From Escherichia coli O127:H6 str. E2348/69 (GTDB lineage Bacteria; Pseudomonadota; Gammaproteobacteria; Enterobacterales; Enterobacteriaceae), in the NCBI RefSeq assembly GCF_000026545.1, contig NC_011601.1: a stretch of 64,000 nt of DNA. One strand, given 5' to 3'. Shown piece by piece: positions 6,001 to 9,000 of this stretch. Numbering within the stretch: position 1 is the stretch's first letter; each line of letters starts with the position of its first letter. The position numbers are program-made.

Positions 6001-9000
6001 ACAGGATTACTGGTCTAACGTTATCAGGGATGACAGGCAGTTTCTGGAGCGTTCAAGAAATCAGTTTAAAGAATATCGTATGGATTGTTTTGATTCGTTT
6101 GTTTTTGGTAAAGAGCAAATAGAATCAAGAAAAGGCCTGGTTATTCTAGACCTGACTAAATAAGACTTAGTTTAGCCCCTGCCATGCAGGGGCTTTTTTT
6201 GTGGTCTGTACAGGCGATCATGTATGGCTATAATAACAGTAAGTTACTACCGGAGACGCCATCATGCAGACCTTCAGTGAAACAGATCTTCGCGATGCGC
6301 AGGCACTGCTGCCCGATTCCGTGCAGCAACTGATTAGCGTGATTGGCTTCCCCGCCCTGACCCGGTTGATTCGTTCTTTTGGTGGCGTGACGTTAAGCGG
6401 TAAAACCGGCGTACACGCCGAACGCACCGGCGGTGTCCATGCCCTGTTACATGACGTGCTCACCGAAGACGAAATCAACAAACTGATCCGCTTTCTTGGC
6501 GGTGCTCCGTTTTACATTCCCCGTTGCGATCATGCGTTACGTGCCCTGCGTAACACCCGTTTTATGGCTGATTTACAGCAGCATGTAAAAGACGGATGCT
6601 CACACCGGCAGGCGCTGGCACTGCTCTGTCCCCGTTACGGCATTTCAGACCGGTACGCATGGCAGCTGATACACCGACGACAAAAACAGACTTCGCTGAA
6701 AAGCCCCACCCAGGTGGGGCTTTTTGATTAATGGGCCTCAGAAAAAAGGAGACACTTATGACCAACTATATGGCACTTGGCGAGTATACGGCCTACTCAG
6801 AGCAGGCCCGGGATGCTGCCGGACGTCGCTTTGCTTATATGAAAAATTTGGCCAGTCAGTTAAACCGAATGGCCGAACAACCGGATATGGTTGTTCAGGA
6901 AGAAGCGTTGCAGTGTGCCATTGCTGACATCATCGCCAGCGAAAACGAGATGCGCGCAGCGATGGAAAAGGCGAACGCCTCTGCTCCGCTTTGTAATAAA
7001 CCTCTTATTACGCCGGATTCTCTTTCCCGCTTCTGATTTATCACCCCGCCGCCGCGGGGTGCTGAACTCCCCCAGCAGTACCCACCACACCAGACCGTTT
7101 ACCCTGTCCACTCAGACCACAAGGCACCTTAAGGGATAGCGCCCTGCAAAAGGCTTTTGTGCCTTTGACAGGGTGTTATTTACGGGCCGTCAGTGGCTCA
7201 GATTTACAGGAGAAACTCATGTCTGAACCCTTATCAGGCGGCGGAGCTGTGGCAGTCACCATCGGTGGTGCCAGTGTGTTTGGCCTTCTCACCAATACCG
7301 ATTTCGGGGTCGTGGTGGGCGCGTTTGCCGGGGCGCTTTTTGTTGTCACTCAGCAGAAAGAAATCCCGGTATGGCGAATGGCTATTCACCTGCTCGTCGC
7401 GTTTGTGGTTGGCGTTCTGGGGGCTGGCGTGGCTGCGTCACTGATGCAGTGGCTGACCCACTACAACGACAAACCGCTTGATGCATTGTGTGCGGTCGGT
7501 GTCTCGGCGTTATCCATCAAGATACTGACCTTTCTTTATCAACAGGAAATTTCATCGCTGTTCGGCCTGTTTTCCAGACTGCGCGGCGGAGGGGGTGGAA
7601 ATGGAAAGTAGCCTTGCCGGTATCGTGAACGTCTGGCTGTGTCTCGCCATTGTGCTGGGGTTGTTTGTGTATCGCCGCCACGGTGCGGCGCATAAACCGA
7701 TGATTACCTGGCTGGCGTACTGGCTGATGCTCGGCTACATCATCATCCCGTTCCGCTGGCTGTCCGGTACATACACGCACTCCAGCTGGCTGGTTGTGGC
7801 GCTGAATCTGGTTTTCTGTGCGCTTATCGTGTGGGCGCACGGGAATTTGTCAAAAATCCTTTCGTTACTGAGGCATCCACATGAAATCAAAAGATGACAT
7901 TTTTGATGAAGTCCTGGGCAAAGAAGGCGGTTACGTCAATCACCCGGACGATAAGGGCGGTCCGACCAAATGGGGCATTACGGAAAAAGTCGCCCGCGCC
8001 CACGGATATCGTGGCGATATGCGCGATTTAACCCGCGAACAGGCGCTGGACATCCTTGAAGCCGATTACTGGTATGGCCCGCGATTTGACCAGATCGCCG
8101 CATTATCCCCTGATATTGCCGCAGAGCTGTGTGATACCGGTGTGAATATGGGGCCAACCGTGGCGTCCAGAATGCTTCAGCGCTGGCTGAATGTGTTCAA
8201 TCTGCGCGGCAGGCTGTACCCGGATATGGACGCAGACGGACGCATCGGGCCTCGTACCATCAGTGCATTGCGCGCCTTCCTGAATAATCGCGGTCAGGAC
8301 GGTGAACGGGTGATGCTGACGGCCCTGAACTGTACGCAGGGGGACCGCTATCTGGAACTGGCAGAGAAACGCGAGGCTAACGAATCGTTTGTTTATGGCT
8401 GGCTGAAGGAGCGCGTGGCGGTATGACGCGTCAGCACTGGACCCACAGAACGCCACGTAAAGCCGCGCGCTGTGTTCTGGCCCTGTTTCTGGTGATGTTG
8501 CTTCCGGTGGGATGCACAGACATTAACAGAGCGGGCCAGCTGTTTGACGCGGCGGCGCAGGTCTGCCGGATTATCGATGGTATCCGGCAGTGTTCACAGA
8601 ACTGATTTTTTGAAGGTCTGACACAGTGAGCATTATCAGATTTACAGAATACAGAGGTTCAGGAGGTGCTGGCGCTGTCATGGTGCTCGCTGAACGCATC
8701 ACCCATTTTTACCGTCAGTACGGTACACATGATGGCACGGTCATTGAACTGGATACCGGGAAAAACGTGTTTGTTCTTGAAAATCCCGACGAAGTTCAGC
8801 GCAGGATTGAACAGGCTCAGAAGGACACTTAATGGCGTGGTCACAGGATATCAGGGACAAAGTCCGTAACGGGTACATCTTTGACCAGCTTCCGCTGGAT
8901 ATCGTCGCCATGAAGTACGCCGTGCCGCACGATACCGCGCGGCGCTGGAAAACGCAGGCGATGAAGAACGGCGACGACTGGGACAAGCTGCGGGCCGCTC

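What the first reader, a model, noticed from the sequence alone, without database searches (positions are those of the whole stretch)
6174..6731. Only one Mor/C-family activator, placed behind a terminator and a weak-minus-35 promoter
Mu uses two paralogues, Mor then C, in a cascade. In this window a single family member is visible, directly downstream of the moron terminator and a promoter with a good -10 but poor -35, and the mor slot is occupied by the secreted-protein moron. Either the cascade is collapsed to one step or the first activator is unrecognisable or lies upstream.
Basis: inference. Interest (0 to 1): 0.35.

Follow-up and report, generated by a model that had tools for sequence, protein, structure and literature searches.

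The report
Single late activator in Mu-like prophage
This E. coli Mu-like prophage has only one Mor/C-type late-gene activator, as most Mu relatives do, but here the gene sits apart, behind the early-operon terminator, with an ordinary promoter of its own.

Summary
The window is E. coli E2348/69. A 35.7-kb Mu-like prophage in eutC carries exactly one Mor/C-family gene (6264-6731). A six-frame profile scan of the whole prophage, including the 4 kb upstream of the window, finds no second copy, while the same profile finds both Mor and C in Mu.

One activator is the norm. Among sequenced phages only Mu, D108, SfMu and their close kin have two.

The terminator (6174-6200) is the early-operon terminator, not the moron's. 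It is kept in relatives with no cargo gene or a different one. It is followed by an invariant TGTACA-16-TATAAT promoter.

Three late promoters (7061-7105, 15219-15263, 27135-27179) share a 16-bp GCTGA-N6-TCAGC-like dyad exactly 23 nt before a -10-like hexamer. That centres the dyad at -43.5, as for Mu Mor and C. The activator's own promoter has no such dyad.

A sister clade (Xenorhabdus and 18 IMG/VR loci) has two activators. An ACTGA-type dyad precedes the orthologue of this gene there, and GCTGA dyads precede the late operons. This looks like an independent Mu-like cascade.

So the cascade here has one step. What keeps the activator's promoter quiet in the lysogen is unknown. One lead is an invariant GATC in its spacer, in a prophage about 4-fold depleted in GATC.

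The parts
5292..5690 (+). gemA (gp16 family), the last conserved gene of the early operon
   Evidence: Pfam GemA E 2.9e-18; RefSeq annotation
5687..6163 (+). Cargo gene (moron) for a 158-aa protein with an N-terminal signal-like sequence. It sits in a variable slot between gemA and the terminator.
   Evidence: Absent in strains C5 and RIVM_C036569. Other strains carry unrelated genes of 113 or 175 aa in the same place. It is 29% identical (E 1e-13) to the gene in the same slot of the Xenorhabdus prophage. No Pfam or PHROG family.
6174..6200 (+). T1, an intrinsic terminator that ends the early operon (hairpin 6174-6194, T run to 6200)
   Evidence: It is present with or without cargo. At least five different stem sequences keep their pairing and the T run.
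6207..6234 (+). Pmor, a sigma-70-type promoter: -35 TGTACA 6207-6212, 16-bp spacer holding an invariant GATCA (GATC at 6216-6219), -10 TATAAT 6229-6234. The start site is inferred near 6241.
   Evidence: CTGTACA, GATCA and CTATAAT are invariant in 11 distinct sequences whose activators are as little as 65% identical, while neighbouring bases vary. There is no NCTGA dyad at -43.5: positions 6190-6205 read GGGCTTTTTTTGTGGT (read).
6264..6731 (+). The only Mor/C-family activator gene (155 aa, Shine-Dalgarno GGAG at 6252-6255)
6702..6730 (+). T2, a second terminator-like hairpin (AGCCCCAC-CCAG-GTGGGGCT then TTTTTGATT) inside the 3' end of the activator gene
   Evidence: Folds at -20.6 kcal/mol, z -3.2. 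Conserved in the Salmonella relative. Absent in relatives whose mor overlaps gemA. The scanner did not list it; a likely reason is that its A/U pairs use up part of the T run.
6758..7036 (+). Conserved 92-aa ORF of unknown function between the activator gene and the lysis promoter
   Evidence: PHROG 7152 E 7.8e-42. Syntenic in Salmonella, Serratia and other relatives.
7061..7105 (+). P_lys, inferred late promoter: dyad GCTGAACTCCCCCAGC 7061-7076, -10-like TACCCT 7100-7105. A G+C hairpin at 7044-7060 abuts it.
15219..15263 (+). P_I, inferred late promoter upstream of the head protease gene: dyad GCTGAACACCCTCCAC 15219-15234, -10-like CATCAT 15258-15263
27135..27179 (+). P_46, inferred late promoter upstream of the gp46-like baseplate gene: dyad GCTGAACACCCTCACC 27135-27150, -10-like CAGACT 27174-27179

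Best explanation
The prophage runs a one-activator late switch.

Shown from sequence: early transcription from Pe, which lies upstream of the window, runs through A, B, gemA and the cargo gene and meets a strong intrinsic terminator, T1. The only Mor/C-family gene lies after T1. It forms a nearly self-contained unit with its own sigma-70-type promoter (TGTACA-16-TATAAT), a Shine-Dalgarno sequence and a second hairpin, T2, at its 3' end.

Inferred: the protein binds as an oligomer to three 16-bp imperfect dyads (GCTGA, six mostly G/C bases, TCAGC-like). Each dyad is centred 43.5 bp upstream of an inferred start site, in front of the lysis-to-head, protease-to-tail and baseplate/fibre operons. 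These promoters have a weak -10 and no -35. The protein would recruit sigma-70 RNA polymerase there, as Mu Mor and C do.

The step that Mu Mor provides (an activator made from the early operon switching on the promoter of the late activator) is missing. It is replaced by an activator-independent promoter.

Unknown: what keeps this promoter from firing late genes in the lysogen, and what sets the delay after induction. Candidates, in my order of preference:
- negative control, or a threshold or dosage effect, relieved by replicative transposition;
- sensitivity to Dam methylation through the invariant GATC in the spacer;
- a contribution from read-through of T1.
For: One family member in the whole prophage, with Mu as a positive control.

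The protein is an outgroup to both Mu paralogues. It scores 25.8 bits against Mor and 26.6 against C, while Mor against C scores 76.6 bits at 37% identity. In the tree Mor and C are sisters.

One copy is usual. All 136 phage records that match this protein have a single match. Of 54 records that match Mu C, only the 14 Mu, D108, SfMu and Yersinia vB_YpM records have two. Of the 80 IMG/VR loci, 62 have one.

T1 and Pmor belong to the phage backbone. They are kept with no cargo gene or with various cargo genes, the stem pairing is maintained through different sequences, and the promoter hexamers are invariant.

The composite late motif occurs 3 times in the prophage. All three are on the + strand in intergenic gaps before late operons, and there are none in the 32 kb of host DNA. 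Markov-1 random sequences give a mean of 0.057 and at most 1 in 300 trials.

The same element, with the same 23-nt distance to a nAnnnT hexamer, lies before the lysis and protease genes of seven diverged relatives. The bases in between differ.

The geometry equals that published for Mor at Pm and for C at the Mu late promoters: a 16-bp imperfect dyad centred at -43.5, a -10 hexamer and no -35 (PMC4390567, PMC4287176, PMC2582627).

Site type follows activator type. Counting distinct sequences, loci with only this activator type have 25 GCTGA late sites and no ACTGA sites. Loci with only the Klebsiella type have 16 ACTGA sites. Loci with both types have 12 ACTGA sites in front of the second activator gene and 14 GCTGA late sites.
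Against: No transcription start, binding or activation was measured. The start sites are inferred from -10-like hexamers.

The motif rule was derived from the same sites it then counts. Its support is their recurrence in relatives, and many of those loci are close kin.

A near-consensus promoter for a lysis-gene activator should be harmful in a lysogen, so some control is missing from this account. I found no operator-like sequence shared between Pmor and the Pe/repressor region.

T2 would cut off the conserved ORF 6758-7036 from any visible promoter, so T2 cannot be a complete terminator.

The P_I hexamer lies only about 8 nt from the annotated start codon.
Confidence: 0.65

Rival explanations
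1. A second, highly diverged Mor/C paralogue is hidden among the small early ORFs or upstream of the window, so the Mu-type two-step cascade is intact.
For: The family diverges quickly. The window protein scores only about 26 bits against Mu Mor or C. Many early ORFs have no known function.
Against: A six-frame profile scan of the complete prophage and its flanks finds nothing beyond the one gene. The next best hit is E 0.83, in the B ATPase. The same profile finds both Mu proteins and both copies in Xenorhabdus. Pfam and PHROG scans of early proteins show no Mor hit. The promoter in front of the activator gene has no Mor-type dyad for a first activator to use.
Confidence: 0.03
2. A regulator that is not a Mor/C homologue controls Pmor and supplies the missing first step. 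It could be a phage repressor, the Ner-like protein, the ANR-family protein, GemA acting through supercoiling, or a host factor.
For: Some control is logically needed. The spacer holds invariant bases (GATCA, then TG) that RNA polymerase does not itself require. The 16-bp spacer is kept in all relatives.
Against: No sequence is shared with the Pe operator region. The bases around the start site are not conserved between E. coli and Salmonella. No candidate protein is identified. This rival overlaps with the best explanation rather than excluding it.
Confidence: 0.2
3. The activator is made mainly by read-through of a leaky T1 from the early promoter, as in relatives where mor is the last early gene. 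The promoter-like sequence would then be incidental or minor.
For: In Serratia, Aeromonas and other relatives the orthologue overlaps the gemA stop codon and has no promoter of its own. This would explain timing without any extra regulator.
Against: T1 looks strong: 9 pairs, 7 of them G-C, a 3-nt loop and T7. Both T1 and the promoter hexamers are held invariant, or change in a compensating way, across lineages. That is not expected of an incidental match.
Confidence: 0.12
4. The layout is regulatory decay in a defective prophage and has no working logic.
For: The invertase gene at the right end is cut short at 31460-31552. The prophage sits in a disrupted host gene.
Against: All replication, lysis, head and tail genes are annotated intact. 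The same layout, with conserved signals, is seen in 57 E. coli genomes where one match covers at least 80% of the 6100-7250 query, in a Salmonella contig and in 19 IMG/VR loci, at different insertion sites.
Confidence: 0.05

Closest known systems
Phage Mu C (late transcription activator, Mup21)
   Same: Same family: a profile built without Mu sequences hits C in 9l0x at E 9.8e-6. The gene lies after the early terminator and just before the lysis genes. The protein is inferred to act on several late promoters that have a 16-bp imperfect dyad centred at -43.5, a -10 hexamer and no -35 (PMC2582627).
   Different: About 29% identity over aligned columns. This subfamily has a roughly 26-residue insertion in the N-terminal domain. 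Mu C is transcribed from the Mor-dependent promoter Pm at the end of a four-gene middle operon. Here the gene has its own sigma-70-type promoter with no dyad. The dyad sequence also differs (GCTGA-N6-TCAGC).
Phage Mu Mor (middle operon regulator, Mup17)
   Same: Same family: 1rr7 at E 0.008. Both follow gemA. In class-C relatives the orthologue overlaps gemA as the last early gene, as Mu mor does.
   Different: Here a terminator separates the gene from the early operon, and its inferred targets are the late operons, not a second activator gene. It is no closer to Mor than to C.
Single 'late transcriptional activator' of other Mu-like phages (SuMu gp16, Pseudomonas MP22/D3112 orf19, Klebsiella ST405-OXA48phi1.1)
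   Same: One Mor-family gene per genome, placed between gemA and the lysis genes. They are 32-40% identical to the window protein. The Klebsiella phage has the same promoter geometry with ACTGA dyads.
   Different: In MP22 and in most IMG/VR loci of the Klebsiella type the gene overlaps or directly abuts gemA inside the early operon. In SuMu and the Klebsiella phage another ORF or a gap follows gemA. The E. coli/Salmonella lineage adds T1, Pmor and T2 around the gene.
Two-activator prophages of Xenorhabdus cabanillasii and 18 IMG/VR loci (architecture A)
   Same: Their second activator is the orthologue of the window protein (44-56% identity). A homologous secreted-protein gene sits in the same upstream slot. 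A terminator-like hairpin lies between that slot and the activator gene. The late promoters carry GCTGA dyads.
   Different: They also carry a Klebsiella-type activator inside the early operon. The promoter of the second activator gene is an ACTGA-type dyad with an AATACT -10, where the window has a sigma-70 promoter. That makes them a true two-step cascade, assembled independently of Mu's.

Membership tests
Mor/C family of transcription activators (Pfam PF08765) | Sequence match to the family profile above the curated threshold | tested here: met
   PF08765 at 28.5 bits against a cut-off of 24.9, E 1.7e-6. PHROG 836 at E 3.5e-42 and PHROG 532 at E 0.0012.
Mor/C family of transcription activators (Pfam PF08765) | Homology to the structurally solved members Mu Mor and C | tested here: met
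   A profile of 17 relatives that excludes the Mu sequences ranks Mu C (9l0x, 9vw8; E 1e-5) and Mor (1rr7; E 0.008) as the top PDB hits.
Mor/C family of transcription activators (Pfam PF08765) | N-terminal helical dimerisation domain, conserved beta-strand linker, C-terminal helix-turn-helix domain | tested here: inconclusive
Mor/C family of transcription activators (Pfam PF08765) | Targets are promoters with a 16-bp imperfect dyad centred at -43.5, a -10 hexamer and no -35 | tested here: met
   Three such sites lie before late operons and recur in relatives at fixed spacing. The start sites are inferred, not measured.
Mor/C family of transcription activators (Pfam PF08765) | Binds DNA as an oligomer and activates sigma-70 RNA polymerase | not testable with these tools
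   Needs EMSA or footprinting and reporter or in vitro transcription assays.
Mu-type two-step cascade (Mor, then Pm, then C, then late promoters) | Two paralogous activators in one genome | tested here: not met
   One profile hit in the whole prophage. The Mu and Xenorhabdus controls each give two.
Mu-type two-step cascade (Mor, then Pm, then C, then late promoters) | Activator-dependent promoter (dyad, no -35) in front of the late activator gene | tested here: not met
   Pmor is TGTACA-16-TATAAT. Positions -51 to -36 read GGGCTTTTTTTGTGGT, with no NCTGA core. Two-activator relatives do have an ACTGA dyad at this place.
Mu-type two-step cascade (Mor, then Pm, then C, then late promoters) | First activator encoded as the last gene of the early operon | tested here: not met
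   Between gemA and T1 there is only the cargo gene, or nothing in strains C5 and RIVM.
Moron (autonomous cargo cassette) for gene 5687-6163 | Present or absent among otherwise collinear phages | tested here: met
   At this slot there is no gene or one of several different genes: the gap from the gemA stop to mor is 95, 434, 454, about 570 or 599 nt.
Moron (autonomous cargo cassette) for gene 5687-6163 | Own terminator that travels with the cassette | tested here: not met
   The terminator stays when the cargo gene is absent (C5, RIVM, L020, L023 and others), so it belongs to the backbone.

The most novel reading that the evidence does not exclude
In this lineage the first activator of a Mu-like cascade has been replaced by a promoter that senses replication. 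Pmor carries an invariant GATC in its 16-bp spacer, in a prophage that otherwise avoids GATC (1.09 per kb against 4.4 per kb in the flanking host DNA). The early promoter Pe also has one in its spacer. If full Dam methylation damps Pmor and hemimethylation relieves it, expression of the only late activator would be tied to replicative transposition. The terminators on both sides would keep it independent of early read-through. The gene-copy increase from transposition could add to the effect. This would give a concrete mechanism for the long-known replication dependence of Mu-type middle and late transcription (stated from my own knowledge of the Mu literature).
Probability: 0.15. Interest if true: 0.7.

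Novelty: new variant of a known kind. Interest (0 to 1): 0.38.

Why it matters
The finding as stated, one Mor/C homologue, is ordinary. It shows that Mu's textbook Mor-then-C cascade is the exception among transposable phages, not the rule.

What may be useful is the comparative picture:
- Three ways of wiring the same activator exist among close relatives: as the last early gene, as the second step of an independently assembled cascade, or as an insulated gene with its own sigma-70 promoter.
- The half-site appears to set specificity (ACTGA against GCTGA), and this correlates with activator subtype. That gives a simple system for studying how activator cascades are built and lost by module exchange.
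- It also offers testable target sites for a prophage carried by the reference EPEC strain and by about 1-3% of complete E. coli genomes (57 to 148 of 5,426, depending on how much of the region must match).

Tried and rejected
- Repressor or Ner operator at Pmor. I searched for k-mers shared between 6164-6270 and the left-end/Pe region. Only trivial T runs and chance 7- to 9-mers came up. The CTGTACAG palindrome occurs only once in the prophage.
- The T1 hairpin as an activator binding site. This is rejected because relatives that encode the identical activator protein carry unrelated stem sequences.
- Autoregulation through a dyad at Pmor. No NCTGA core with the right geometry is present.
- Reading GCTGAAC/TGAACA as a -35 hexamer. 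No -10 lies 16-18 bp downstream, so this is rejected in favour of the -43.5 dyad reading.
- Locating the published Mor and C dyads in the Mu Pm, Plys and PI sequences by eye, as a positive control for the spacing rule. I could not do this reliably, so the geometry is cited from the papers.
- Rfam scan of 1-32000: no hits.
- Near-identical matches in the phage collection: none beyond a 0.5-kb stretch of the lysis region.
- Literature searches found no description of this prophage's regulation.
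Full report
**Where the window comes from.** Window 5000-9000 is 100% identical to the chromosome of E. coli O127:H6 E2348/69. The annotated record shows a Mu-like prophage of about 35.7 kb inserted in eutC. It spans L001 10155-45874, which is window -4059 to about 31660. Its parts, in order, are:
- a repressor on the minus strand;
- a Ner-like helix-turn-helix protein, transposase A and ATPase B (B ends at window 267);
- about 20 small early genes;
- gemA (5292-5690), a 158-aa gene (5687-6163) and the Mor-family gene (6264-6731);
- a 92-aa ORF, two holins and a GH108 endolysin;
- DUF1804, a DNA methyltransferase, the terminase and portal genes, and the head and tail genes.

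The rest of the window is host DNA.

**Checking the observation.**
- The ORF at 6264-6731 passes the Pfam Mor threshold (28.5 bits against 24.9). It matches PHROG 836 'late transcriptional activator' over its full length (E 3.5e-42).
- The hairpin at 6174-6194 followed by T7 is a good intrinsic terminator.
- TGTACA-16-TATAAT at 6207-6234 is the best promoter-like site in 4500-9500.
- A second hairpin with a T run lies at the 3' end of the gene (6702-6730, -20.6 kcal/mol). The scanner did not list it.

To test 'only one', I built a profile from the window protein, its database relatives, SuMu gp16, MP22 orf19, Mu Mor and Mu C. I searched every stop-to-stop frame of 30 aa or more in the whole prophage with its flanks. 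There was one hit at E 2e-70, and the next was E 0.83. The profile finds both Mor and C in Mu, and exactly one gene in each of three other Mu-like phages. Pfam scans of 19 of the annotated prophage proteins between window 282 and 9332 show no other Mor hit.

**Is one activator unusual? No.**
- The window protein is equally distant from Mu Mor (25.8 bits) and Mu C (26.6 bits). Mor and C are 37% identical to each other and are sisters in a neighbour-joining tree (not bootstrapped).
- tblastn with the window protein finds 136 phage records, each with one match.
- tblastn with Mu C finds 54 records. Only the 14 Mu, D108, SfMu and Yersinia vB_YpM records, whose C is at least 98.6% identical, have two matches.
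- Of 80 IMG/VR loci fetched with a family alignment, 62 have one family member.

**The terminator is not the moron's.**
- Strain C5 and strain RIVM_C036569 have gemA followed directly by the terminator and promoter. Other strains carry unrelated genes of 113 or 175 aa in the slot.
- Across 11 distinct sequences the hairpin changes sequence but keeps its pairing and its T run. Stems seen include AGCCCCTGC/GCAGGGGCT, AACCTCCGC/GCGGAGGTT and AGCCCCGCC/GGCGGGGCT. This set includes a Salmonella relative whose activator is 66% identical.
- In the same sequences CTGTACA, GATCA and CTATAAT are invariant and the spacer stays at 16 bp.

T1 is therefore the early-operon terminator of the phage backbone, and cargo genes insert just upstream of it. 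The window's cargo protein is 29% identical (E 1e-13) to the gene in the same slot of a Xenorhabdus prophage.

**Late promoters.**
- Two intergenic gaps share GGGTGCTGAACNCCC...CAGTACCC (7057-7083 and 15215-15241). None is expected by chance. A third copy of the core lies at 27131-27147.
- Aligned with relatives from Salmonella, Serratia, Aeromonas, Xenorhabdus and metagenomes, the conserved unit is a 16-bp element: GCTGA, six mostly G/C bases, then a TCAGC-like half-site. It is a perfect inverted repeat in several relatives. Exactly 23 variable nucleotides follow, then a hexamer of the form nAnnnT (TACCCT, CATCAT, CAGACT, TACACT, TATACT and others).
- If transcription starts about 7 nt after that hexamer, the element spans -51 to -36 and is centred at -43.5.
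[quoted passage not shown] It is also the geometry for C at the Mu late promoters (PMC2582627).
- With this rule the prophage has three sites. All are on the + strand, before the lysis, protease and gp46 operons. The host half of the window has none. Random sequences average 0.057.
- The rule was derived from these sites, so its real support is the recurrence in diverged relatives.

**The activator's own promoter is of a different kind.** Positions -51 to -36 of Pmor are GGGCTTTTTTTGTGGT, and no NCTGA core with the right spacing exists there. The T1 hairpin cannot be a binding site, because strains that encode the identical protein carry unrelated stems.

**Three architectures among relatives.**
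- *C.* In Serratia, Aeromonas and several metagenome loci the orthologue overlaps the gemA stop codon. It is the last early gene, and there is one activator.
- *B.* The E. coli and Salmonella lineage, 19 IMG/VR loci plus the genome loci, has T1, Pmor, the gene, then T2. There is one activator.
- *A.* Xenorhabdus cabanillasii and 18 IMG/VR loci have two family members. A Klebsiella-type activator (35% identical to the second one) overlaps the preceding early gene. A secreted-protein gene follows. Then comes a dyad, ACTGAACCCCTTCAAC, with AATACT 23 nt downstream, then a hairpin with a T run. The orthologue of the window protein follows that, and then late promoters with GCTGA dyads.

Phages whose only activator is of the Klebsiella type have ACTGA dyads at their late promoters. 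Counting distinct sequences:

| Activator types in the locus | ACTGA sites | GCTGA sites |
|---|---|---|
| Klebsiella type only | 16 late | 2 late (weak, probably chance) |
| Window type only | 0 late | 25 late |
| Both | 12 in front of the second activator gene | 14 late |

One locus with both types (L058) is an exception: it has GCTGA in front of the second gene.

The simplest reading is that the first base and flank of the half-site set which subtype binds. On that reading the two-activator phages run a Mor-then-C-like cascade that arose independently of Mu's. The promoter in front of their second activator is nearly identical to the lysis promoter of Klebsiella-type phages. This suggests the cascade was assembled by recombination between two phage types.

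**Interpretation for the window.** The prophage keeps the late-acting member, lacks the early-acting one, and has an activator-independent promoter in the place where its two-activator relatives have the activator-dependent one. 'Collapsed to one step' describes the present state well. Whether it arose by loss from a two-activator ancestor is not resolved: the tree places the E. coli/Salmonella clade as sister to a group containing both A and C forms.

**What remains unexplained.**
- A 10-of-12 promoter driving an activator of lysis genes should need restraint in a lysogen. I found no operator-like sequence shared with the Pe region.
- One lead is the invariant GATCA in the spacer. GATC is about 4-fold depleted in the prophage: 39 in 35.7 kb, or 1.09 per kb, against 4.4 per kb in the adjacent host DNA. 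In the window part, 33 are seen where about 121 are expected from base composition. Two of the five intergenic GATCs lie in the spacers of Pe and Pmor. This prompts the Dam/replication-coupling hypothesis given as the novel case. It is untested.
- T2 would separate the conserved 92-aa ORF (PHROG 7152) from any promoter, so T2 is probably partial.

**Verdict.** The feature is the common state of Mu-like phages. The E. coli/Salmonella insulation of the gene behind T1, with its own promoter, is a modest new variant.

Noticed in passing
L015 3303-5786; L039-L059 (most), around 5900-7460: A clade of Mu-like prophages (Xenorhabdus cabanillasii and 18 IMG/VR loci) has two Mor-family genes. An ACTGA-type dyad promoter precedes the second gene and GCTGA-type dyads precede the late operons. 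This looks like a two-step cascade built independently of Mu's. Its 'middle' promoter is nearly identical to the lysis promoter of phages that carry only the Klebsiella-type activator.
   Followed up: partly
L015 5270-5325 and equivalents in L039-L059: In the two-activator phages a hairpin with a T run lies between the -10 hexamer and the ribosome-binding site of the second activator gene. Its stems differ between loci but stay paired. The inferred start falls in or next to the 5' arm, so the hairpin could stop early read-through yet spare transcripts that start at this promoter.
   Followed up: no
window 1-31660 versus 31700-64000; L001 11221, window 2238, 6216, 31452: GATC is about 4-fold rarer in the prophage (1.09 per kb) than in the adjacent host DNA (4.4 per kb). 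Two of the five intergenic GATCs sit in the spacers of the early promoter Pe and of Pmor.
   Followed up: partly
window 15150-15185 and L001 10325-10360 (prophage left end): An A/T-rich block (CGTTTTTAAAAGGGTTTTAAAAACGGTTTTAT) lies in the gap between the G-like and protease genes. This is the position of Mu's strong gyrase site. The block is conserved in the Klebsiella and Serratia relatives, and a similar copy lies near the prophage left end.
   Followed up: partly
window 7136-7238: The roughly 100 bp just upstream of the first holin gene, plus its first codons, are 74-79% identical to sequences next to 'putative holin' genes in about 170 other E. coli genomes, including a K-12 derivative. 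The lysis cassette and part of its leader seem to be shared with other prophages. This explains why P_lys lies 160 bp from the holin start.
   Followed up: no
window 7044-7060: A G+C hairpin without a T run (CCCCGC-CGCC-GCGGGG) directly abuts and overlaps the P_lys dyad. The Serratia relative has a different hairpin at the same place (L013 about 10800-10826).
   Followed up: no
window 15258-15273: The -10-like hexamer of P_I ends only 7 nt before the annotated protease start codon (15271), and an in-frame ATG lies at 15262. Either the mRNA has almost no leader or the start codon or promoter assignment needs revision. The same CATCATGC arrangement is conserved in Serratia and metagenome relatives.
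   Followed up: no
window 6758-7036: A conserved 92-aa protein of unknown function (PHROG 7152) is always encoded between the activator gene and the lysis promoter in the single-activator relatives. In this prophage it has no visible promoter of its own downstream of T2.
   Followed up: no
window 1409-1642: RefSeq annotates an early gene as an 'ANR family transcriptional regulator' (77 aa, PHROG 2227). It is conserved in the relative RIVM_C036569.
   Followed up: no
window 31460-31552: A DNA-invertase gene is cut to about 30 codons, next to oppositely oriented tail-fibre genes at the prophage right end. No com/mom-like genes are present. A PF01555 DNA methyltransferase sits instead in the late operon at 9379-10119.
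   Followed up: no
window 4950-5025: Inside the early region there is a 14-bp-stem palindrome (4990-5021) next to a promoter-like site (ATCACA-17-AATAAT, 4955-4983), in a 250-bp gap before the gene at 5042. The 'early operon' may therefore be more than one transcription unit.
   Followed up: no
L001 9721-10158 and 45875-46348 (window about 31661-32134): The prophage splits eutC, the gene for the ethanolamine ammonia-lyase small subunit, in E2348/69.
   Followed up: no
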